Assembly (NCBI RefSeq): GCF_054482525.1 | Contig: NZ_CM137006.1 | DNA length: 64,000 bases | Direction: 5' to 3' (one strand) | Part shown: positions 5,850 through 60,940 of the stretch, piece after piece | How positions within the stretch are numbered: position 1 is the first letter of the stretch | Layout: every line of letters starts with the position of its first letter | Position numbers and translations under genes: made by a program | The notes under the pieces: model-generated | Database searches by the model: none | What the model was told of the DNA's origin: nothing | Seen by the model: the letters and a program-made list of their open reading frames with translations, nothing else

Positions 5850-6163
5850 ATGATAGTAACTGCGGTAGTACATTTATCCCGGAAATAACCGGAGCGATTA
5901 TCAGGGTTTAACAATATTAAATACCCGTAGCGCATTACTAGCGGGCCTAAAACAACAATATGGACATCTTAACGATATTCTGCGCCTGCGTGTGCGGAAC
6001 AGAAACCCTTACCCGATATACTTGTTATGCCAGAGGTAGCAATTGCGTTAGCAGCGTACTGTTGCTGTAAAGTATAACGCCTATATTTTACAGTTCAGTC
6101 CTCTTTTGCTTATTACAACCTTAAGTATATCAAGCATATAAAGATAATAAGAGACTGAACAAT

Positions 6164-8311: not shown

Positions 8312-11300
8312 TTGTCACTTGCGTTATTAATGAATAAGAAATTTAAATATAAGAAATCGCTTTTAGCGGCTATTTTGAGTGCAACCCTGTTAGCCGGTTG
8401 TGATGGCGGTGGCTCCGGATCTTCCTCCGATACGCCGCCTGTAGATTCTGGAACAGGGTCTTTGCCGGAAGTGAAACCTGATCCAACACCAAACCCGGAG
8501 CCGACGCCTGAGCCAACGCCGGACCCAGAACCTACGCCGGAACCGACACCTGATCCTGAGCCAACACCAGAACCGGAGCCAGAACCTGTTCCTACGAAAA
8601 CGGGTTATCTGACCCTGGGCGGAAGCCAGCGGATAACTGGTGCTACTTGTAATGGTGAATCCAGCGATGGCTTTACCTTTACGCCAGGCGACAAAGTCAC
8701 CTGTGTGGCAGGGAACAACACGACAATTGCTACCTTCGACACCCAGTCAGAAGCTGCGCGTAGCCTGCGTGCGGTTGAAAAAGTGTCGTTTAGTCTTGAG
8801 GACGCGCAAGAACTGGCAGCTTCCGATGACAAGAAAAGCAATGCGGTTTCGCTGGTAACGTCCAGTAACAGCTGTCCGGCGAATACAGAACAGGTTTGCC
8901 TGACGTTCTCCTCAGTGATCGAGAGTAAACGTTTCGACTCGCTGTATAAGCAAATCGATCTGGCACCGGAAGAGTTCAAAAAGCTGGTCAATGAAGAGGT
9001 GGAAAACAATGCCGCGACCGATAAAGCGCCATCCACTCATACTTCACCGGTTGTGCCCGTCACCACGCCGGGAACAAAACCGGATCTGAACGCTTCCTTC
9101 GTGTCGGCTAACGCGGAACAGTTTTATCAGTATCAACCCACTGAAATCATTCTCTCCGAAGGCCGACTGGTAGATAGCATGGGCAATGGTGTGGTTGGCG
9201 TAAATTACTACACCAGCTCAGGCCGTGGCGTAACTGGCGAAAACGGCAAATTCAATTTCAGCTGGGGCGAAACCATCTCCTTTGGTATCGACACCTTTGA
9301 ACTGGGCTCAGTGCGCGGCAATAAGTCGACCATTGCGTTGACTGAACTGGGTGACGAAGTTCGCGGCGCGAATATTGATCAGCTTATTCATCGTTACTCC
9401 CAGGCCGGAAAAAATGATGAGCGTGAAGTGCCGGACGTAGTGCGCAAGGTCTTTGCCGAGTATCCCAACGTAATCAACGAGATTATCAATCTCTCGTTAT
9501 CCAATGGCGAGGCGTTGAGCGAAGGCGATCAAACCTTTGAGCGGACAAACGAATTTCTTGAGCAGTTTGAATCCGGGCAGGCTAAAGAGATTGATACGGC
9601 GATTTGTGACTCCCTTGGGGGCTGCAACTCTCAGCGTTGGTTCTCGTTGACAGCACGCAATGTTAATGACGGCCAGATTCAGGGCGTTATTAACAAGCTG
9701 TGGGGTGTGGATACGAACTACAAATCTGTCAGCAAGTTCCATGTATTCCATGACTCTACCAACTTCTATGGCAGCACCGGTAATGCGCGCGGTCAGGCAG
9801 TGGTGAATATCTCCAACGCGGCATTCCCGATTCTGATGGCGCGTAATGATAAAAACTACTGGCTGGCCTTCGGCGAAAAACGCGCCTGGGATAAAAACGA
9901 GCTGGCGTACATTACGGAAGCGCCTTCTCTCGTTGAGCCGGAAAACGTTACGCGCGATACCGCCACCTTTAACCTGCCGTTTATTTCGCTGGGGCAAGTC
10001 GGTGAGGGCAAACTGATGGTTATCGGTAACCCGCACTACAACAGCATTTTGCGTTGTCCGAACGGTTACAGCTGGGAAGGCGGTGTTGATAAAAACGGTC
10101 AGTGTACGCGTAACAGTGATTCTAATGATATGAAGCACTTTATGCAGAACGTGTTGCGCTATCTGTCCGACGATAAATGGACGCCGGACGCGAAAGCCAG
10201 CATGACCGTAGGTACCAACCTGGATACTGTCTATTTCAAACGTCATGGTCAGGTTACAGGAAACAGCGCTGAGTTCGGCTTTCATCCGGATTTTGCGGGT
10301 ATCTCTGTTGAGCATTTAAGTAGCTATGGCGATCTCGACCCGCAGGAAATGCCGCTGCTGATCCTCAACGGCTTTGAGTATGTGACTCAGGTTGGTAACG
10401 ATCCTTATGCAATCCCGCTGCGAGCAGATACCAGCAAACCGAAGCTGACTCAGCAGGATGTGACCGATCTGATCGCCTATCTGAACAAAGGTGGATCGGT
10501 GCTGATCATGGAAAACGTGATGAGCAATCTTAAGGAAGAGAGCGCGTCTGGCTTTGTACGTCTGCTTGATGCCGCAGGTCTGTCGATGGCACTGAACAAG
10601 TCGGTAGTAAATAACGATCCGCAAGGGTATCCGAACCGCGTTCGTCAGCAGCGCGCAACGGGCATTTGGGTCTATGAACGTTATCCTGCCGTAGATGGTG
10701 CGCTGCCGTACACCATCGATAGTAAGACAGGGGAAGTTAAGTGGAAATATCAGGTAGAAAACAAACCTGATGACAAACCGAAGCTGGAAGTTGCCAGCTG
10801 GCTGGAAGATGTAGATGGCAAACAGGAAACGCGTTATGCCTTTATTGATGAGGCCGATCATAAAACAGAGGATTCTCTGAAGGCTGCGAAGGCAAAAATC
10901 TTTGAGAAGTTTCCTGGATTAAAGGAGTGTAAGGACCCAACTTACCACTACGAGGTCAACTGTCTGGAATATCGTCCTGGCACGGGGGTTCCGGTTACTG
11001 GTGGCATGTATGTTCCACAGTATACGCAACTAAGCCTTAACGCCGACACGGCAAAAGCGATGGTGCAGGCTGCGGATTTAGGCACCAACATTCAGCGTCT
11101 GTATCAGCATGAGCTCTACTTCCGGACCAATGGTCGCAAAGGTGAGCGTCTGAGCAGCGTCGATCTGGAACGTCTGTACCAGAACATGTCGGTCTGGCTG
11201 TGGAATAAAATTGAATATCGTTATGAAAACGACAAGGATGACGAGCTGGGCTTTAAAACGTTCACCGAGTTCCTGAACTGCTACGCCAACGATGCCTATA

Positions 11301-52146: not shown

Positions 52147-52623
52147 TTAAAGCAGACCGTGTTCGGCAAAGGAGAAAACCTGGTTGCCACCGACTATCAG
52201 ATGGTCCGGCACCCGGATATCCACCAGGCCCAGTGCCTGTACCAGACGTTCCGTGATAAGGCGGTCTGCCTTACTGGGTGTGACTTCACCGGACGGGTGA
52301 TTGTGCGCCAGCACCACGGCAGCGGCATTGTGGTACAGGGCGCGTTTAATCACTTCCCGGGGATGGACTTCCGTGCGGTTGATGGTGCCGGTGAAGAGGG
52401 TTTCACCGGCAATCAGCTGATTCTGGTTATTCAGATACAGTACCCGGAACTCTTCACGCTCCAGTCCCGCCATGTTCAGAATCAGCCATTCCCGTGCCGC
52501 ACGGGTGGAGGTGAAGGCCACGCCGGGTTCATGAAGATGGCGTTCCAGGGTTTTCAGGGCCCGCAGAATGAGACTGCGCTCGCCGGGCGTCATCTCTCCT
52601 GGCAGAAAGGAAAGTTGTTGCAT
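52147..52623 (-). CDS. yeeS: RadC-like JAB-domain protein (YeeS/YkfG/YfjY family)
   Basis: 158-aa from ATG 52623; JAMM-like motif HNHPSGEVTPSKAD. Confidence 0.8.
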   Translation of the reverse strand: MQQLSFLPGEMTPGERSLILRALKTLERHLHEPGVAFTSTRAAREWLILNMAGLEREEFRVLYLNNQNQLIAGETLFTGTINRTEVHPREVIKRALYHNAAAVVLAHNHPSGEVTPSKADRLITERLVQALGLVDIRVPDHLIVGGNQVFSFAEHGLL

Positions 52624-52638
52624 TGTGCTTCTCTCCAT

Positions 52639-53124
52639 TCAGTCGATGATGCGCATAATGGCGCTGCATTCCGGATGCTGCAGGGCGTAATCCCGCAGCC
52701 GGTAATAATGGACCGTCATGGCATAACACTCCGTACGACAGGCATGATGACTGTACGTCATCAGACAGGCAGCAATGCCGGCGGCTTCCGGGCTCATTTC
52801 AGCGCGGTTACCGTTCATGACATTGAACAGTACCCATGTTTCGTCATCATCGTCATCCGGTTCGGGTGCCATAAATGCCCCTCCGTTATTCAGTGTGTAC
52901 AGATTCCAGATACCACCGCAGTAGTCTTCACACAGACGGTCCATCCAGCCGAAGACACGGGGCTCCAGGGTCACCCACTGTGGAATGAGGCCAAAGTGCT
53001 GTGGCCAGAAGCTGATGCACTGTTCATCAGGGACGGGAGTGGCAACCAGTTGAGACTGGTTATTCCCTGATGCAGTAGTTACGGAAACAGAAGGTGTGGT
53101 GGAATTATGTGAAACGGTTGTCAT
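52639..53124 (-). CDS. Antirestriction protein (KlcA/ArdB-like; YfjX/YafX/YeeR-neighbourhood family)
   Basis: 161-aa; acidic stretch EPDDDDDETW; family resemblance. Confidence 0.7.
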   Translation of the reverse strand: MTTVSHNSTTPSVSVTTASGNNQSQLVATPVPDEQCISFWPQHFGLIPQWVTLEPRVFGWMDRLCEDYCGGIWNLYTLNNGGAFMAPEPDDDDDETWVLFNVMNGNRAEMSPEAAGIAACLMTYSHHACRTECYAMTVHYYRLRDYALQHPECSAIMRIID

Positions 53125-53214
53125 GATATTATTCCTTATAAAAAGCAAATGAATGAAGAAGGCTCGGGGGCAGGGACAGACGTGAGTCAGGACGGCGCTT
53201 TCAGGTAAACGGTA

Positions 53215-54033
53215 TCAGCGCATGTTCTCCAGCAGCGTTTCCGCCATCACCCATAATGCGCGATTGAGCTTAATATCGGTGTCGATGCTGTGAATGGCCC
53301 GGGTATGGATACGTTTTCCTCTGGCACTGCGGCCGGAAATTCCGCCTTTCAGCATATTCTCCTGGATGGTCTGATATGCGCTCCACAGGTCCTTACCGTA
53401 ATCCTCCCTGCGTCGTGGCGTAAGAATGTCAGCGGTGGTGACGGGCTGATGTTCGTCACCATAACGGTAAGTCAGGGCCGCCTGTGCCAGCGCCTGGCGT
53501 GCCGGTGGCGGCAGGACCAGCGACTGCATGGCATCACGCTTCTCCTCTATCCGGTCAAACACGCCCACCACCTCGTAAGCCCCTTCGATAACTTTCTCCA
53601 CTACATTTCCCCGGTGTGGAACACGCACTTCCCCCAGAGACTGGCCACAGACGCACCCGTTCTGGCAGACGAACCTGAAGTAACCCGGCAGCATCTGGTA
53701 GCTGGAGGTACCGTCATGAGAGTTGAGCAGAATAATTTCAGGGACATGTTCTCCGTTTATCTCTCCGGCCCGCCGCAGACGCAGCATGTGTTTGGTATAT
53801 TCCCGGCGGCTCTGGTCGCGCACACGGGTCTGGCAGGCGAAGAACGGCTGAAAGCCTTCCCGCTGCAGATTTTCCAGGACGGTAATGGTGGGAATGTACG
53901 CATACCGTTCACTGCGGGAGGTGTGCCGGTCTTCCCCAAAAATACTGGGTACATGGCGTATCAGTTCTTCATGTGTCAGCGGACGGTCACGGCGTATCTG
54001 GTTTACATGACCAAAACGACTTGCTAATCGCAT
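53215..54033 (-). CDS. DUF932-family protein (YafZ/YfjQ-like)
   Basis: 272-aa; typical size and sequence of the YafZ/YfjQ family found in CP4-type elements. Confidence 0.7.
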   Translation of the reverse strand: MRLASRFGHVNQIRRDRPLTHEELIRHVPSIFGEDRHTSRSERYAYIPTITVLENLQREGFQPFFACQTRVRDQSRREYTKHMLRLRRAGEINGEHVPEIILLNSHDGTSSYQMLPGYFRFVCQNGCVCGQSLGEVRVPHRGNVVEKVIEGAYEVVGVFDRIEEKRDAMQSLVLPPPARQALAQAALTYRYGDEHQPVTTADILTPRRREDYGKDLWSAYQTIQENMLKGGISGRSARGKRIHTRAIHSIDTDIKLNRALWVMAETLLENMR

Positions 54034-54123
54034 GATTTGCTCCTTATGAATGAGTTAGCGGTATAAATGAAAAAGCCGCGTCTTCTGGAGAAGACGCGGC
54101 CTGATGGATCAAGTGAATGACGT

Positions 54124-54357
54124 TTATTGCCTGAGAATTCCCTCACTGGCGAGATACGGATTTAGCTGTTTTCCGGCATCAGGTTCAAAATTCCAGCACC
54201 GCCAGCGTAGCTGCCCTTCAGCATTGCGAATAACCAACCGGAAATGTGTTCCCTGGTCATCTTCAATAAGCACATTAAGGTAAGCCGTTGTGACGGCAAG
54301 TGCCTGGTTGCGTGAGAAAGGGCCTTCGGGCAATAAACGTGATGTACAACCCGGCAT
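54124..54357 (-). CDS. Small DUF905-like protein (YkfF/YfjR-like)
   Basis: 77-aa ORF immediately downstream of the Ag43 gene. Confidence 0.5.
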
Positions 54358-54427
54358 ATCTGTTGCTCCCTGTAAGTAAAAGGCCCCGGTAATGATGACC
54401 GGGGCCTGAAGGGGAGTGACCTGATTA

Positions 54428-57274
54428 TCAGAAAGTCACGTTCAGTGTGGCCTGACCGTTATAACCTTCAGCGCTGCTGCCGCTGACACTGTGGGCATAA
54501 CCGGCCTGAACGCCCAGGGTGATATTTTCCCGGACACGGGCTTCCAGTCCGGCCTGCAGGTCCAGTGACGTGCCATTCTGGGACGGTGAGAACGTCATGT
54601 TACTGCCGGCTGCGGCTGTACCCATGCTCATGTCTCCCCGGGAGCTGAAGGTGCGGATAACAGAAGGCTGTACCCACCAGTTCACCGGCAGTTCACTCAC
54701 GCTGTGTTTGGCACTGTCGCGCAGGGTGTCACGGGATGAGGTGCCTTCGCCAAAGGTCATATCGTTGTGGCTGCCCAGACGGAAACCGGCACGCACATGT
54801 TGTGCACTGCCATGCCCGAACTTCACATAACCGGCGTTATCCTGACCGTCATCCAGGGAGAGCCCCTGCCAGGTGTACTGCAGTTGTGGCTCCAGCATCA
54901 GGTTGTCAGTGATACTGAAGGGCAGACCGGTTTCCAGTGAGCCCAGCCAGCCCCAGCCCCGGGCGCGGAAGTCGTTATTGTCCGATGACGCTTTCATGCT
55001 GTGGCGGGTTCCCTGTGCCACAATGTCAGCCCACAGGCCGGAGGATGTGTGTACCAGATTCAGGTATCCGCCCAGACTGCCGGCATCATCCCGGACCGTG
55101 CCGGCGCGGGAGCCGTCATCATCCTTAACATCAACGGAAGAATGGCCTGCAGCACCATACACCCCTGTCGTCAGAGACATACCGGCAACCTCTGTTCTGA
55201 GCAGGTCACCCTCCAGACGGACGAAGCCATAGCTGCCGCTGCTTTCCGGCGTGGCCCCACGGGCAATACCGCCGTTGTTATCGTGCCCGAGATGACCGCC
55301 CTGAATGCTGAGACGGACGCTGTTATTTTCACCGTTTACACCGGTCTGATGGCTGCGGGAGCCTGCCAGAATCCGGTCATAGTCCATTGCCTGTGTCAGC
55401 ATGGAGGCATACAGGGGGACTTCAGCACGATAAGCATTTTCACTGCGCAGGTACCAGTCTTCATCGCTGTCACGGTTCAGGGTGTAGTTAAAGGCGCCGG
55501 CCTGAAGCGGGCGGCTCAGGGCAAACGCACCTTCTTCTGTGGTGGCACCATTCTGTGCATCCACAACCCGGATACCCTGTCCGGTGGTTGCCACCCCGAG
55601 GTTACTGTTTCCGACATTTGTGAACGCAAGCCAGGTTTTGCCGGTTGCCTGGCCACCATTAATCACCAGCTGGTCAGAGGCATTGCTGCCATCAAGGCGA
55701 ACACGCATATTGATGGTGCCCCCCTGACCGGTGAGGTTACTGGTGGTCAGTTTATGGAACGTTACCGGGGAGTCGCCTTTTGCAACAGCACGGCTCAGCG
55801 CGGCATCCGGTGTCGTCTGATTATCAAAGTGAATCTCTCCTGCGTTAACAATATCGCCGGTACTGACCACATCACCATTCAGTACCATGCTGGCGCCTTT
55901 ACTGAGCTGTGTTCTGCCACTCAGACTTCCCCCGGCAGCCAGCGTCAGTGTTCCACGATGTCCGACAGTGGTGTTGCCTGCCTGTCCCCCGGCATTAACC
56001 GTAAAGCTGCCGCCATTTTCCAGTAGCAGGCCGCTGGCCTGCCCGGATATGCCATCAATACTGAACTTACCGCTGGCATTGGTCCCCTCAACAGTGGCAC
56101 CACTGTCTGCTATCAGGGCACCACCGGATGTCATGGTGACATCTGTTGCCTTACCACCGGCAGACACTGCCAGGGTACCGCCGTCATCCACCAGTGTTTT
56201 CTGCGCTGAATGGCCCTCCAGTACATCCAGGCGACCGCCGGACTCCAGAACAACGCCGTCAGCCTTACCGTTTTCCACCGTGAAATTGCCCAGACGGTTG
56301 CTGCCGGTGACGGTTGCCGCCGTACTGGTGACCAGTGCGCCGCCCTGCGTCAGGGTGACATTCGTGGCTGTACCACCGGCGTTCACCTGCAGTTTGCCTT
56401 TCTGGTTAACGGTGGTGAAATCCGCCAGACCACCTTCCTTGATAATCTGCCAGCCGTCACTGTTAACAACAGTGCCAGACGCCGTACCGCCGTTGTGCAC
56501 ATACTGGTACCCCCCATTCAGCGTGGTATCCAGTGCGTGACCATGTACAGTCTGGTCGCCGCCGGCATAAACCACAGTGGTATTTGCCGTTCCTTCAGCA
56601 GCCACAATCTGACGACCATTTTTATTGATGGTGGTGCGTACGGCATCTCCGTAGACGGTCTGCCCGGTATCACCATTTTCCGCATCCGGTCCTCCTTCCG
56701 CGCCAGTATTCACAACCGTGTCGGTTGCCATTGCGCCGGATTTGACGGCCTGCCAGCCCTTCTCATTAATGACGGTACCCGTTGCAATCCCGCCTTCATG
56801 TACCCACTGCTCACCGCCGTTCAGAGTGGTGTTCACTGCCTGCCCCTGAAGGCTCTGTCCGCCTCCGGCCCTGATAACCGTGTCTGAAACGCTTCCTCCG
56901 GCATTCACTCTCTGAAGACCACCACCGGTGACAGTAGTGTTGTTGGCGATACCGCCATTTTGTATCCATTGCCCGCCGGTATTGGCCTCGTTATCCGGCC
57001 CATACTCCAGACCGGTACTGATGGTCATTCCGTTGGCTGTACCGAAGACAATCTGGTTGTCATGATTTTCCAGTGCTCCGCCGCTCACGGTTTCTCCCGC
57101 CTGTACAACCGTGTCAGCAGCCAGTACCGGGAGTGATGTGACAGCAGCAAGAGACAGCGCAACCGCCACACCGGCGCGTTTTCCCCGTGAGCGGGCCAGT
57201 TCGGAGGCCACCACCAGGGTGCCCGTAATGTGATTCCATACCAGCCTGTAGCTGGTGTTCAGATGTCGTTTCAT
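54428..57274 (-). CDS. flu: Antigen 43-family self-associating autotransporter adhesin
   Basis: 948-aa from ATG 57274 ([31 protein letters not shown]... extended signal peptide); Gly/Thr/Asn-rich beta-helical passenger; C-terminal beta-barrel ending ...NVTF. Confidence 0.9.
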
Positions 57275-57491
57275 CAGCTTTTCCTTACAGAGGGTGAATA
57301 AAAAAGCCGGTACCCACAAATGTGGATACCGGCAGGTACAAAACAGCATGGTCAGATAAAGTGGTTTTTCCCGGACATAAATGCTTCCCCTCTCTCATCC
57401 GCCTGAGAAGTATCAGTCCGTTGTGTGCAATTCCGTTCTGCATGATGAAGAGATTCAGCTGCCTTTTCGCAGGCCATTAACCACTATAAAC

Positions 57492-57527
57492 GATCGATAT
57501 AAACGATCGATATCTGTTTTATCGATC
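57492..57527 (-). promoter_or_regulatory. Three clustered GATC sites upstream of the Ag43 gene (Dam/OxyR phase-variation switch)
   Basis: GATC at 57492-57495, 57505-57508 and 57524-57527 within 36 bp, about 220-250 bp upstream of the Ag43 start. Confidence 0.75.
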
Positions 57528-57646
57528 GTTTTATTCTATTAATAACAAGGCAGCCACGCAAGAGAAACAGGAGGAGTATGAGGGGTTTGTGTCATGTTTT
57601 CAGTTGGTTAACGCAATGTAATCAGGCATTTCCTCTGGCAGAGTGT

Positions 57647-58519
57647 TCAGAAGAAAATCCAGTTCCATACAGCGCGGGCAACAGAGACCACCGAGTCACG
57701 GACGGCACGCAGAACCGTGCGTGCAACAGAGGCAATACAGACGCTCTCCGCTGTGTCAAATATCCGGTCCACCGCACCGGTAAACTGTTCACGGGCCTGA
57801 GACCGGACAGATTCCGTGCGCAGCTCGTCCTGCAGGCGGGTCATCAGGGGACTGGCGGCATGGTCGGGAAGCGCTGTCATGAGCGCACTGACCAGCGTAT
57901 CCAGTTCCCAGCCGGTGCGGGCCGATACGGCCACAACCGGATGTACGGGCCGGAACAGACGGAATACCGCCTCCGTTTTTTCGCGAATATTCTGTGCCTG
58001 TGCGGGAGAAGGCTGAATACCGGCCATATCCCATTCATGGCAGGGCTCCGTTTTGTCGGCCTGCGTCACCACAAACAGCACCTGCTGATGTCCCCGGTGC
58101 AGGATGTGTCGCCAGAAATACTCATCCACAGACAGGGCGCGGTCATCGGCTTTAATCAGCCACAGCACCAGGTCCAGTTCGGGCAGAATGTCACGGTACA
58201 GGGCTTCATACTCTGCATCTCTGTCCCGGCTCTCGCCCACCCCGGGCAGGTCAGTGATAACCATGCTGTGACCGTGGCCACTCAGACGGAAGCGCCGCAC
58301 TTCCCGGGTGCCGGCGTGAACATCACTGACCGGGGTGACCTCCCCCTGAAACAGTGCATTACAGAGTGAGGATTTACCGGCCCCGCTTTTACCCATAATG
58401 CCAATCACGGGTTCGTGACTGGTGAGTTTGCGCAGATGTTCCAGGATGTGACGGGAAAGTGAGTAAGGCAGGGAGGAGAGCGGTTTTTCAATTGCCTCAA
58501 TGGCATCAGACGGATTCAT
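57647..58519 (-). CDS. yeeP: YeeP/YfjP/YkfA-family GTPase
   Basis: 290-aa from ATG 58519 (MNPSDAIEAIEKPLSS...); P-loop GIMGKSGAGKSSLCNALF; G3-like DLPGVGES. Confidence 0.8.
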   Translation of the reverse strand: MNPSDAIEAIEKPLSSLPYSLSRHILEHLRKLTSHEPVIGIMGKSGAGKSSLCNALFQGEVTPVSDVHAGTREVRRFRLSGHGHSMVITDLPGVGESRDRDAEYEALYRDILPELDLVLWLIKADDRALSVDEYFWRHILHRGHQQVLFVVTQADKTEPCHEWDMAGIQPSPAQAQNIREKTEAVFRLFRPVHPVVAVSARTGWELDTLVSALMTALPDHAASPLMTRLQDELRTESVRSQAREQFTGAVDRIFDTAESVCIASVARTVLRAVRDSVVSVARAVWNWIFF

Positions 58520-58748
58520 ACATGTATTCCCGGTGAAAAAAGACAAAACCCCGCACACCGGAAAGATGGCGGGGGGATTCACGGAGATAATATCTGCCTG
58601 AAATTATTTGGAATGCAGGTATATGTGGCTGATTTGTATCAGCTAATGAGTACAGGTCTGAATCTAATCTGACAGTCCGCTCTGTGCCAGGAGCGGACAT
58701 TGTTTTCCAACTATTACCTAAGCCTGCGAACCATCTCATCTTCACCCC

Positions 58749-59636
58749 TTAAATTCTCAATGTATCGATAACCGCTCGTAGGGCGGGTGACACATTGCGG
58801 TGCGGATAATAGATATATGAACCCTCCAGGCGTTGGCTGTAGCATTGCAAAACTCTGATTAGCGCCCCCTGTTCTATATCATCAGACACTAATTCCTCCG
58901 GAACATAGGCCAGCCCCAGACCTAGCCTTGCGGCTTTGGCTTCCATATAACTGTCAGCAAAGGCCCATTGTCCCTGAGGCTGATGGGTGATCTTTTTACC
59001 GTCCTGATTGAGTTCCCAGACATACAGACTGCCGTCGCCGAACTGGTAAGCGATGCAGGGATGACCTACTAAATCGGTGGGGGTTTGTGGAAATCCGTAG
59101 CGCTGAAAGTGCCCGGGCGTGCCGACAACAGCCATCTCCATATCGGGCGAAATGCGCACCGCAACCATACCGCTATCCACTTCCGAGCCCAGACGTATAC
59201 CGGCATCGAAGCGCTCAGTAATAATATCGACAAACCGGCTTTCGCTGATGAGCTCCAGCCGAATATCCGGGTATCGTTGTTTAAACACCGCCAGCTTCGG
59301 CAGCAGCACTTTATCAATGGCGTGCTGGCTCGCATTAATTCGGACCGTACCCGATGGTGTATGGCGATAATGGGCCAGTGTGGCAAGCCCCATATCTAAG
59401 GCGTCAAATCCAGATTCGACGTTTCGATAGAGTAACTCGCCGGCATGGGTGAGCGATAACTTGCGCGTGGTGCGTACCAGAAGCTGCACGCCCAGTCGCT
59501 CTTCCAGCTCGCGCACTGCACGGCTAATTCCTGATTGCGCCAGGCCAAGCCTCTGCGCGGCGGCGGTAAAACTCCCTTCTCGCACGACCTGCATAAACAG
59601 ATAGAGATCGTTATAGTTTTCCCGTTTCGCCATCAT
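58749..59636 (-). CDS. LysR-family transcriptional regulator
   Basis: 295-aa; N-terminal HTH (FTAAAQRLGLAQSGISRAVRELEERLGVQLLVRTTRKLSLT); divergent from a hydrolase/transporter pair. Confidence 0.85.
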   Translation of the reverse strand: MMAKRENYNDLYLFMQVVREGSFTAAAQRLGLAQSGISRAVRELEERLGVQLLVRTTRKLSLTHAGELLYRNVESGFDALDMGLATLAHYRHTPSGTVRINASQHAIDKVLLPKLAVFKQRYPDIRLELISESRFVDIITERFDAGIRLGSEVDSGMVAVRISPDMEMAVVGTPGHFQRYGFPQTPTDLVGHPCIAYQFGDGSLYVWELNQDGKKITHQPQGQWAFADSYMEAKAARLGLGLAYVPEELVSDDIEQGALIRVLQCYSQRLEGSYIYYPHRNVSPALRAVIDTLRI

Positions 59637-59788: not shown

Positions 59789-60940
59789 ATGAGGGGGATT
59801 TTGATGACTGCTTTCACCCAAAAATTGACAGCCGCGATACCCACCATGCTGTTATGCGTATCATTAAGTGGAGTCACAAATATGAGTTACGCTGATACAA
59901 CCAATCCGAACGCGCCCGTTTCGCAGGTCGAGAAATGGGATAAAACTTTTGCTGAGAGCACGAAAGTTGATCACCGTAAGGTGACCTTTCCGAACCGGTA
60001 CGGGATCACCTTAGTCGGGGATCTCTATATACCGAAGGATCGTGGCGATCGCAAGCTGGCAGCAATTGCTGTTAGTGGCCCCTTCGGGGCGGTGAAAGAG
60101 CAATCCAGCGGCCTGTATGCGCAGACGCTGGCTGAACGGGGGTTTGTCACTCTGGCTTTTGACCCTTCATACACGGGTGAAAGCGGTGGCTACCCGCGAA
60201 ACGTCGCATCTCCGGATATCAACACCGAGGATTTCAGCGCGGCGGTTGATTTCTTAGGCCTGCAAAAAGAGGTGGATCGCAACCGTATCGGGTTGCTCGG
60301 CATCTGCGGATGGGGTGGCATGGCCTTAAACGACGCCGCGATGGACACACGTGTCAAGGCGGTGGCGAGCAGCGTGATGTATGACATGAGCCGTGCAATG
60401 GGGCATGGCGTGGGCGATGGCAAAGACCGCTATACCACTGCCGATCGTCGTGCCGTATTGCAGTATTTGAACATGCAGCGCTGGAAGGATGCTGAAAATG
60501 GCGCTTTCGCGCCAGGCGGGCATGATATTTACGTTGATGAGAAGGGCAACGTCACCGCTTCCGATCGTATTTTACCGGAAACTTTGCCAGCGAATTCTAA
60601 TCCGGTATTGAAAGAGTTCTTTGATTATTACCGCATGCCGCGTGGTTTCCATGCGCGTTCGGTCAACTCAACCAGTGCCTGGAATGCAACCATGCCTCTG
60701 TCATTTATGAATATGCCGCTGCTGAGTTACGCTAATGAAGTTACTATCCCTACACTCATCGTGACCGGTGAAAAAGCCCATTCACGCTATTTTGCTGAAG
60801 ATGCCTTTAAGGCAATCGGCAGCAAAGAGAAAGAGTTAGTGATTGTCCCCGAGGCAAACCATGTTGATCTGTACGACAACGTTGCGGGTAAGATCCCATT
60901 TGCCAAATTTGAGCAATTTTTCAAGGCAAACTTAAGATAA
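59789..60940 (+). CDS. Secreted alpha/beta-hydrolase-fold protein (dienelactone-hydrolase-like, putative Cys nucleophile)
   Basis: 383-aa (alternative ATG at 59804); signal peptide; nucleophile-elbow-like GICGWGG. Confidence 0.65.
   Translation: MRGILMTAFTQKLTAAIPTMLLCVSLSGVTNMSYADTTNPNAPVSQVEKWDKTFAESTKVDHRKVTFPNRYGITLVGDLYIPKDRGDRKLAAIAVSGPFGAVKEQSSGLYAQTLAERGFVTLAFDPSYTGESGGYPRNVASPDINTEDFSAAVDFLGLQKEVDRNRIGLLGICGWGGMALNDAAMDTRVKAVASSVMYDMSRAMGHGVGDGKDRYTTADRRAVLQYLNMQRWKDAENGAFAPGGHDIYVDEKGNVTASDRILPETLPANSNPVLKEFFDYYRMPRGFHARSVNSTSAWNATMPLSFMNMPLLSYANEVTIPTLIVTGEKAHSRYFAEDAFKAIGSKEKELVIVPEANHVDLYDNVAGKIPFAKFEQFFKANLR

What the first reader, a model, noticed from the sequence alone, without database searches (positions are those of the whole stretch)
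57275..57540. Antigen 43 gene retains the three-GATC phase-variation switch
Three GATC sites within 36 bp (57492-57527) sit upstream of a full-length Ag43-family autotransporter. This matches the arrangement in which Dam methylation competes with OxyR binding to give heritable ON/OFF expression, so this copy is probably phase-variable and epigenetically regulated.
Basis: partly seen in the sequence, partly recalled or inferred. Interest (0 to 1): 0.35.

Follow-up and report, generated by a model that had tools for sequence, protein, structure and literature searches.

The report
Antigen 43 Dam/OxyR phase switch
The three GATC sites are real and form the textbook methylation-versus-OxyR on/off switch in front of an intact E. 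coli antigen 43 adhesin gene, so this is an ordinary, already understood feature found in most E. coli genomes.

Summary
Confirmed and already known. The window is E. coli. GATC sites lie at 57492-57495, 57505-57508 and 57524-57527. They sit 218-253 nt upstream of an intact 948-aa Ag43/Cah autotransporter on the minus strand (54428-57274).

A 36-bp GATC triad is not unusual here: the window has five. The evidence is homology. The spacing (19 and 13 bp) and the position next to the -10 hexamer match K-12 flu/agn43, and the leader matches Rfam IS102/IsrC and ends in a terminator hairpin.

Two half-sites, each 8/10 to ATAGnTnnnAnCTAT, lie 17 bp apart (the spacing reported for reduced OxyR) at 57493-57539. 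They overlap all three GATCs and the -10. This is the single best score in the 64 kb, no simulated sequence reached it, and K-12 scores the same at the homologous position.

In 77 distinct related alleles the GATC columns and the specified OxyR positions hardly vary, whereas the consensus 'n' positions of the downstream half-site do.

Side notes: this allele family is the common one in E. coli and includes O157 cah. Its 7-bp core is inverted relative to K-12 and CFT073. The switch sits in a GATC-poor island. Methylation and ON/OFF behaviour could not be tested.

The parts
54428..57274 (-). Intact Ag43/Cah-family autotransporter adhesin gene, 948 aa. It is a mosaic: residues 53-330 resemble K-12 Flu and residues 331-948 resemble O157 Cah.
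   Evidence: NCBIfam NF033177 over 1-948/948, 1998.6 bits. Pfam ESPR, AIDA, AC_1, Autotransporter. Closest solved structure is 7KO9. Segment identities. The CDS contains no GATC.
57282..57286 (-). Shine-Dalgarno AAGGA, 7 nt before the ATG at 57274
   Evidence: Read from the sequence. Identical in K-12 and EDL933.
57300..57333 (-). Intrinsic terminator in the leader: a 12-bp stem (GCCGGTATCCAC / GTGGGTACCGGC), loop ATTT, then six T (57305-57300)
   Evidence: Terminator scan. Present in the MFE and centroid RNA folds. It forms the 3' end of the Rfam IS102 match. Conserved in K-12.
57293..57529 (-). agn43 5' leader, equivalent to the IsrC/IS102 small RNA; the predicted transcription start is at about 57527-57529
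   Evidence: Rfam RF00124 IS102, 79.4 bits against a gathering score of 46, model positions 1-206/206. K-12 isrC is annotated as starting at the G of GATC-I.
57524..57527 (.). GATC-I, at the predicted transcription start and inside OxyR half-site 1
57505..57508 (.). GATC-II, overlapping the first tetranucleotide of OxyR half-site 2
57492..57495 (.). GATC-III, overlapping the last tetranucleotide of OxyR half-site 2
57525..57539 (-). OxyR half-site 1, ATAGAATAAAACGAT (8/10 to ATAGnTnnnAnCTAT); it overlaps the -10 hexamer and GATC-I
   Evidence: Half-site scan. Identical in K-12. Invariant or nearly so in 77 alleles.
57493..57507 (-). OxyR half-site 2, ATCGTTTATATCGAT (8/10); it overlaps GATC-II and GATC-III and lies 17 bp from half-site 1 (32 bp centre to centre)
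   Evidence: In 77 alleles the specified positions vary 0.01 and the 'n' positions 0.15. A 32-bp centre distance (from the positions given) is called canonical for reduced OxyR in PMC4856963.
57513..57519 (-). 7-bp core AAACAGA between 12-bp palindromic arms (57501-57512 and 57520-57531); inverted relative to K-12-type alleles (TCTATTT / TCTGTTT)
   Evidence: Both CFT073 copies are K-12-type.
57533..57538 (-). -10 hexamer TAGAAT
   Evidence: Read from the sequence. Identical in K-12 and invariant or nearly so in 90 distinct alleles.
57556..57561 (-). Probable -35 hexamer TTGCGT, 17-bp spacer (K-12 has TTGTCC at the same distance)
   Evidence: Read from the sequence. It matches TTGACA at only 3/6, so the consensus scanner did not report a promoter.
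57647..58519 (-). Upstream YeeP-like GTPase-family gene of the CP4-44-like island, same orientation, intact here
   Evidence: Annotation of the 99.6%-identical strain AH50. The same neighbour occurs in CFT073 and EDL933.

Best explanation
This is the regulatory region of an E. coli antigen 43 (agn43/flu/cah) gene, and it carries the classical Dam/OxyR epigenetic phase-variation switch. Transcription starts from a sigma-70 promoter (-35 at 57561-57556, -10 at 57538-57533), at or next to GATC-I (about 57527), and runs leftward on the minus strand. OxyR, as a reduced tetramer, binds two half-sites at 57539-57525 and 57507-57493. These overlap the -10/+1 region and all three GATCs. When bound, OxyR blocks transcription and shields the GATCs from Dam; this is the OFF state with unmethylated sites. 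When Dam methylates the GATCs after replication, OxyR cannot bind and the gene is transcribed; this is the ON state with methylated sites. Each state reproduces itself, and the post-replication race between Dam and OxyR allows rare switching. Transcripts then cross a 253-nt leader. Its intrinsic terminator (57333-57300) yields a short IsrC-like RNA unless it is read through into the 948-aa adhesin gene. Shown here: the sequence elements, their homology to K-12, the statistical uniqueness of the OxyR site, and purifying selection on the GATCs and the OxyR contact positions. Inferred from the K-12 literature: binding, methylation states and heritable switching.
For: The three GATCs and their 19/13 spacing match K-12 flu. 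The Ag43/Cah gene is intact. The leader matches Rfam IS102/IsrC and has a terminator. The OxyR site scores 8/10 + 8/10 with a 17-bp spacer at 57493-57539; it is the unique maximum in the 64 kb (next best 14/20), 0 of 60 Markov simulations reach 16, and K-12 scores the same at the homologous position. In a sample anchored only on the leader terminator, 110 of 117 metagenomic alleles keep all three GATCs (112 of 119 with the window and K-12 included). In 77 distinct alleles of this family, GATC columns vary 0.004 against 0.065 for other columns. In half-site 2 the specified positions vary 0.01 against 0.15 for the 'n' positions. The island around the switch avoids GATC: 4 sites in 8.4 kb, 3 of them in the switch, and 2 in 50001-57275 against 25 expected. 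Retaining the triad against that background argues for selection. The mechanism itself is described in PMC2909390, PMC3764049, PMC4872104 and PMC13337833. Unmethylated triads upstream of both CFT073 agn43 genes are reported in PMC4752239.
Against: No methylation, binding or expression data exist for this sequence. dam and oxyR lie outside the window; their presence is inferred from the E. coli identity. This allele's leader is only about 74% identical to K-12's, and its 7-bp core is inverted. In the register that gives K-12's best four-groove consensus match (14/20), the window scores only 10/20, and its best N7-spaced match (13/20) is shifted 11 bp upstream (the 10/20 is my hand count of the register). 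I found no open-access experiment on this allele family. The sigma-70 consensus scanner reported no promoter because the -35 matches only 3/6. Of the 117 metagenomic alleles sampled, 7 have lost one GATC, so the triad is not absolutely required.
Confidence: 0.87

Rival explanations
1. The switch is homologous to K-12's but behaves differently in this allele family. The core inversion moves the weak third OxyR half-site from downstream (K-12 index 11-25, 6/10) to upstream-paired (window index 23-37, 5/10). OxyR affinity, the dependence on its redox state, or the ON/OFF rates could then differ from K-12, up to a strong bias towards one state.
For: Core orientation co-segregates strictly with leader family: 77 distinct alleles of this type against 13 K-12-type. 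The best N7-spaced consensus register shifts by 11 bp. In opvAB, single-base changes in OxyR half-sites lock the switch (PMC4856963).
Against: The two strong half-sites (8/10 each) and all three GATCs are identical in both families, and the inverted bases lie in the spacer between them. The GATCs are under equally strong constraint in this family.
Confidence: 0.1
2. The GATC cluster is incidental. It could be a by-product of a palindromic element, such as a terminator for a neighbouring gene or a recombination scar, with no regulatory role in this strain.
For: Triads of this size are common in the window. The palindrome 57501-57531 followed by T-rich sequence was reported as terminator-like on the plus strand.
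Against: No plus-strand gene ends upstream of it. The element sits exactly where the K-12 switch sits relative to the -10 and the leader. The GATCs and OxyR positions are conserved while neighbouring bases vary freely. The OxyR score is unique in the 64 kb.
Confidence: 0.02
3. The switch works at the level of transcription initiation, but little visible phase variation results. Output would be limited by termination in the leader (giving only the IsrC-like RNA), or the adhesin would be masked by the group 2 capsule encoded next to it.
For: A strong conserved terminator lies 26 nt before the start codon. A kps capsule cluster occupies about 25-48 kb of the same window. From my own knowledge, not retrieved here: capsule shielding of short adhesins including Ag43, and premature termination in the agn43 leader, have both been published.
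Against: The same terminator is present in K-12, where Ag43 phase variation is readily seen (PMC3764049). The open reading frame is intact, whereas about 10% of sampled alleles are truncated.
Confidence: 0.12

Closest known systems
E. coli K-12 flu/agn43 regulatory region (CP4-44 prophage; IsrC leader)
   Same: Three GATCs spaced 19 and 13 bp. Identical -10 TAGAAT. Identical OxyR half-sites ATAGAATAAAACGAT and ATCGTTTATATCGAT, 17 bp apart. Same leader terminator, Shine-Dalgarno sequence and first codons. YeeP-type GTPase gene upstream and a GATC-free coding sequence.
   Different: The leader is about 74% identical and 31 nt longer here. The -35 is TTGCGT rather than TTGTCC. The 7-bp core between GATC-I and GATC-II is inverted (AAACAGA against TCTATTT). 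The sequence after GATC-III differs. The protein is 948 aa against 1039 aa, 71% identical. yeeP is intact here and a pseudogene in K-12.
cah (calcium-binding Ag43 homologue) of E. coli O157:H7 EDL933
   Same: Same leader family. The upstream region is 94% identical, and the switch is identical except for one base (A here, G in EDL933, in the core). Protein length is 948/949 aa with 90% identity. The same GTPase gene lies upstream.
   Different: Passenger residues 53-330 are only 72% identical to Cah and 87% to K-12 Flu. The protein is therefore an SL1-EJ2-BL2 mosaic, which would be class C4 in the scheme of PMC6668479.
OxyR/Dam switches of Salmonella gtr (P22) and opvAB
   Same: GATC sites lie inside OxyR half-sites of the ATAGnTnnnAnCTAT type at reduced-OxyR spacing, and methylation blocks OxyR binding (PMC2909390, PMC4856963).
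   Different: Those systems have three or four half-sites upstream of the promoter, and OxyR alternates between an activating and a repressing pair. Here there is one site over the -10/+1, where OxyR can only repress.
pap-type Lrp/Dam phase variation
   Same: A heritable methylation pattern set by competition between Dam and a DNA-binding protein.
   Different: The regulator is Lrp with PapI, acting on two GATCs 102 bp apart in alternative Lrp sites (PMC2909390). That arrangement is not present here.

Membership tests
agn43-type Dam/OxyR phase-variation switch | Three closely spaced GATC sites at the start of the transcribed region, spaced 19 and 13 bp | tested here: met
   57527-57524, 57508-57505 and 57495-57492 on the coding strand. 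K-12 has the same spacing at L001 3318/3337/3350.
agn43-type Dam/OxyR phase-variation switch | An OxyR recognition sequence overlapping the GATC sites | tested here: met
   8/10 + 8/10 half-sites 17 bp apart at 57493-57539. This is the unique top score in the 64 kb, 0 of 60 simulations reach it, and K-12 has the same score and position. Physical binding was not tested.
agn43-type Dam/OxyR phase-variation switch | A promoter placed so that bound OxyR occludes it (-10 inside or next to the OxyR site, +1 at GATC-I) | tested here: met
   The -10 TAGAAT at 57538-57533 lies inside half-site 1. The K-12 isrC start is annotated at the G of GATC-I, and the Rfam IS102 match starts at 57529. The generic sigma-70 scanner reported nothing because the -35 is weak.
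agn43-type Dam/OxyR phase-variation switch | Long leader (IsrC/IS102) with an intrinsic terminator before the Ag43 start codon | tested here: met
   RF00124 at 79.4 bits against a gathering score of 46, full model length. Hairpin plus T-run at 57333-57300.
agn43-type Dam/OxyR phase-variation switch | The host encodes Dam methyltransferase and OxyR | not testable with these tools
   Neither gene is in the window. The window is 99.6-100% identical to E. coli strain AH50, and both genes are core E. coli genes (established knowledge).
agn43-type Dam/OxyR phase-variation switch | GATCs unmethylated in OFF cells and methylated in ON cells; heritable, reversible ON/OFF expression that depends on dam and oxyR | not testable with these tools
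   This needs methylome or reporter experiments. It has been reported for K-12, and unmethylated triads were reported upstream of the CFT073 agn43 genes.
Ag43/Cah self-associating autotransporter (NCBIfam NF033177) | Full-length architecture: extended signal peptide, beta-helical passenger with AIDA repeats, autochaperone, C-terminal beta-barrel | tested here: met
   NF033177 over 1-948/948 at 1998.6 bits. ESPR 6-50, five AIDA stretches, AC_1 488-599, Autotransporter 673-924. The passenger matches the solved Ag43 structures 7KO9, 7KOH and 4KH3.
gtr/opvAB-type OxyR/Dam switch | Three or four OxyR half-sites upstream of the promoter giving two alternative tetramer positions (one activating, one repressing) | tested here: not met
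   There are only two strong half-sites, over the -10/+1. The middle half-site scores 5/10 (with the half-site breakdown counted by hand). No other site in the window reaches 16/20.
pap-type Lrp/Dam switch | Two GATCs about 102 bp apart within Lrp sites, with a PapI/PapB-type regulator | tested here: not met
   The spacings are 13 and 19 bp, and the nearest other GATCs are 1.5 and 3.4 kb away.

The most novel reading that the evidence does not exclude
The allele family to which this switch belongs is the majority type in E. coli (about 2,890 of 5,426 complete genomes) and includes O157 cah. Its palindrome-flanked 7-bp core is in the opposite orientation to the K-12 and CFT073 alleles, on which all the evidence I could retrieve rests. 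The inversion leaves the two strong OxyR half-sites untouched. It moves the weak third half-site so that a four-groove (oxidised-type) OxyR footprint would sit one helical turn further upstream, over the -10. The two families could therefore differ in switching rates or in sensitivity to the redox state of OxyR. The near-absence of GATC from the Ag43 gene and the surrounding island could also help insulate the switch from processive Dam. Neither idea has been tested, as far as I could find.
Probability: 0.15. Interest if true: 0.4.

Novelty: already known. Interest (0 to 1): 0.12.

Why it matters
It matters little as a discovery, because Ag43 phase variation by Dam and OxyR is a textbook epigenetic switch and this sequence family occurs in most E. 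coli genomes. For annotation it shows that this strain's Ag43 copy is intact and almost certainly expressed in only part of the population. That bears on aggregation, biofilm and vaccine-antigen studies of the strain. The allele comparison also gives a compact, testable description of the OxyR site: two 8/10 half-sites 17 bp apart, with natural variation confined to the non-contact positions. It points out that the most common natural allele family has not been the one studied.

Tried and rejected
1. I scored the classical four-groove OxyR consensus (two half-sites 7 bp apart). K-12's best register scores 14/20. The window scores 10/20 in that register (hand count) and 13/20 one turn upstream. 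Scores of 13 or more occur at 14 places in the 64 kb, so this model does not discriminate. I replaced it with the reduced-OxyR spacing, which does.
2. The generic promoter scanner found nothing in 57200-57700. The promoter was assigned by homology to K-12 instead.
3. GATC clustering as evidence on its own was rejected.
4. The first scan of the species-representative genomes, using the start-codon region, found nothing. The second, using the triad pattern, found one hit, in Raoultella.
5. I tried to read the primary agn43 papers (PMC135096, PMC4135671) and the O104:H4 methylome paper (PMC3879109). None is held.
6. Three literature searches for experiments on the non-K-12 allele family found nothing usable. 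A fourth, for a published note on the GATC-free coding sequence, also found nothing usable.
7. I checked whether CFT073, the strain with SMRT evidence, carries this allele family. It does not; both copies are K-12-type.
8. I tested whether alleles that lost a GATC are preferentially pseudogenes. There is no signal: 1 of 5 against 9 of 93.
9. I tested whether GATC depletion is specific to the switch's neighbourhood. TCGA, GGCC and CGCG are also depleted, and neighbouring island genes also lack GATC. General palindrome avoidance by a mobile element is therefore the simpler reading.

Full report
**What is in the sequence.** GATC occurs at 57492-57495, 57505-57508 and 57524-57527. The neighbouring large gene is on the minus strand. 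Its ATG is at 57274 and its stop at 54428, giving 948 codons with no interruption. A longer ORF starting at 57349 runs through a terminator hairpin and has no ribosome-binding site, so I do not take it as the real start. The protein matches NCBIfam NF033177 'Ag43/Cah family autotransporter adhesin' end to end, 1-948 of 948, at 1998.6 bits against a cut-off of 1200. Pfam finds ESPR, AIDA, AC_1 and the Autotransporter beta-domain. The closest solved structure is 7KO9. The window is E. coli: it is 99.6-100% identical to strain AH50 over the 39 kb compared.

**Is the triad more than chance?** Not by count. The window has five GATC triads spanning 36 bp or less, and random placement of its 216 GATCs gives at least one in 66% of trials. 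The evidence is homology and context. On the coding strand the sites are spaced 19 and 13 bp, exactly as in K-12 flu (L001 3318, 3337, 3350). They follow the same -10 hexamer TAGAAT (57538-57533), with a weak -35 TTGCGT 17 bp upstream (57561-57556); K-12 has TTGTCC at the same distance. Rfam's IS102 model, the IsrC RNA annotated as the flu leader in K-12, matches 57529-57293 over its full length at 79.4 bits against a gathering score of 46. The match starts two bases before GATC-I, where K-12 isrC is annotated to begin. The leader ends in a 12-bp hairpin plus six T (57333-57300), 26 nt before the start codon. The neighbours are those of the CP4-44-type island: an upstream YeeP-like GTPase gene, then downstream DUF905, DUF932, an antirestriction gene, RadC, DUF987 and YeeU/CbtA.

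**The OxyR-site search.**
- The classical consensus, two ATAGnTnnnAnCTAT half-sites 7 bp apart, is uninformative. K-12's best register scores 14/20. The window scores 10/20 in that register by my hand count, and 13/20 one helical turn upstream. Scores of 13 or more occur at 14 places in the window.
- The arrangement reported for reduced OxyR is decisive. It places the half-sites 17 bp apart, 32 bp centre to centre; from the half-site positions given in PMC4856963, that is the distance the paper calls canonical.
- In that arrangement ATAGAATAAAACGAT (57539-57525) and ATCGTTTATATCGAT (57507-57493) each score 8/10.
- The total of 16/20 is the single best in the 64 kb, the next being 14. None of 60 simulated sequences reached 16. 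K-12 has the same two half-sites at the homologous position.
- Half-site 1 contains the -10 and three bases of GATC-I. Half-site 2 begins with ATC of GATC-II and ends with GAT of GATC-III.
- For comparison, functional opvAB half-sites match 7-10 of 10.

**Evidence from related alleles.** I collected 120 metagenomic loci with a pattern that specifies only the 3' arm of the leader terminator, so the sample is not conditioned on the switch.
- Of the 117 metagenomic loci with enough upstream sequence, 110 keep all three GATCs at 19/13 spacing, and 7 have lost exactly one. The 119 upstreams include the window and K-12.
- The 90 distinct sequences fall into two leader families: 77 like the window and 13 like K-12.
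- Within the window's family the twelve GATC columns have a mean variability of 0.004, against 0.065 for the other columns.
- In half-site 2 the ten specified positions vary 0.01 and the five 'n' positions vary 0.15. The pentamer between GATC-II and GATC-III occurs as TTACT, TTGCT, TTGGT, CTGAT, TCACC, TTTAT and others, always at the same length.
- This pattern is what selection for Dam targets and OxyR contacts would produce.
- In complete E. coli genomes the window-type switch is found in 2,892 of 5,426, including O157:H7 EDL933 cah, which differs by one base. The K-12 type is found in 1,243.

**How it most likely works.** Several retrieved papers describe the mechanism in K-12. OxyR bound to the unmethylated site represses agn43 and protects the GATCs from Dam. 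Methylation of the GATCs prevents OxyR binding and allows transcription. Replication reopens the competition, giving heritable ON and OFF states that switch at roughly 10^-3 per generation (PMC2909390, PMC3764049, PMC4872104, PMC13337833). SMRT data for CFT073 show the six GATCs upstream of its two agn43 genes unmethylated (PMC4752239). All the cis elements are present and constrained here, so I take the same mechanism to apply, with confidence 0.87. Binding, methylation and switching are inferred, not shown.

**Where this allele differs.**
- The leader is only about 74% identical to K-12's.
- The 7 bp between the 12-bp palindromic arms that carry GATC-I and GATC-II read AAACAGA here and TCTATTT in K-12. 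One K-12-type allele (L083) has TCTGTTT, the exact reverse complement.
- Orientation co-segregates strictly with leader family. One recombinant (L088) joins a window-type promoter to a K-12-type core. This is therefore an old fixed difference, not a flipping element.
- The inverted bases lie in the spacer between the two strong half-sites, which explains why the inversion is tolerated. It does move the weak third half-site to the other side: 6/10 at index 11-25 in K-12, 5/10 at index 23-37 here.
- Both CFT073 copies are K-12-type. I found no accessible experiment on the window's family. This is the only respect in which the finding goes beyond the textbook case.

**The protein.** It is a mosaic. 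Residues 53-330 are 87% identical to K-12 Flu and 72% to O157 Cah. Residues 331-613 are 96-97% identical to Cah and about 58-60% to K-12. That corresponds to the SL1-EJ2-BL2 combination, class C4, in PMC6668479.

**Verdict.** The feature is already known and very common, so interest is low.
- The gene is on the minus strand.
- The count of GATCs is not itself evidence.
- The promoter's -35 lies just outside the stated interval.
- The OxyR site is best described as two half-sites 17 bp apart at 57493-57539.
- The allele belongs to the unstudied majority family with an inverted core.

Noticed in passing
window 50611-58988 (Ag43 CDS 54428-57274 in particular): A GATC desert. This 8.4-kb island segment holds only four GATCs, three of them the switch. 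The Ag43 CDS has none against 6.4 expected (0 of 1000 synonymous shuffles reach 0). K-12 flu also has none against 8.7 expected, and 94 of 101 metagenomic Ag43 CDSs have none. TCGA, GGCC and CGCG are also depleted, and neighbouring island genes lack GATC, so general palindrome avoidance by a mobile element is the simplest reading. PMC4659465 reports GATC under-representation in genomic islands.
   Followed up: partly
window 57513-57519 (arms 57501-57512 and 57520-57531): The 7-bp core of the switch palindrome is inverted relative to the K-12 and CFT073 alleles. Its orientation co-segregates with the leader family, and one natural recombinant (L088) joins a window-type promoter to a K-12-type core.
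   Followed up: yes
L003 5081-5133 (Raoultella ornithinolytica NBRC 105727, NZ_BCYR01000007.1): A near-identical switch: ATAGTTTATAACGAT-N17-ATCGTTTATATCGAT, scoring 9/10 + 8/10 by hand count, with three GATCs at 19/13 spacing. It lies about 100 bp upstream of an unannotated 256-aa ORF with a hydrophobic N-terminal region (read by eye from the translation) and a 118-aa ORF with no family matches. Directly beside them is a CBASS system (SLATT 2TM effector plus cyclase). This may be an undescribed OxyR/Dam phase-variable locus in a defence island.
   Followed up: partly
window 54428-57274: The Ag43 protein is a mosaic. Residues 53-330 are 87% identical to K-12 Flu and residues 331-613 are 96-97% identical to O157 Cah. 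That is the SL1-EJ2-BL2 combination, called class C4 in PMC6668479.
   Followed up: partly
loci L004-L123 (metagenomic agn43 loci): About 10% of Ag43 reading frames on contigs long enough to judge are truncated by premature stops, and 7 of 117 switches have lost one GATC. The two defects are not obviously linked. 948 aa is the most common length.
   Followed up: partly
window 1-50000: Context: the glc operon, the sslE-gsp type II secretion cluster, C0719 sRNA (5864-6085, minus strand), a JUMPstart element (25779-25817) and a group 2 kps capsule cluster whose serotype-specific region is low in G+C (33-42% over about 24-40 kb). By homology to strain AH50, an IS4 element and an IS110 remnant separate the capsule cluster from the Ag43 island. 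No tRNA gene lies in the window.
   Followed up: no
window 47304-47330, 60020-60050, 10466-10507, 46245-46280: Four other GATC triads spanning 27-37 bp. None has the 19/13 spacing, and none appears among the top-scoring OxyR-like sites. 60020-60050 lies inside the region annotated as an alpha/beta hydrolase gene; the others were not mapped to genes.
   Followed up: partly
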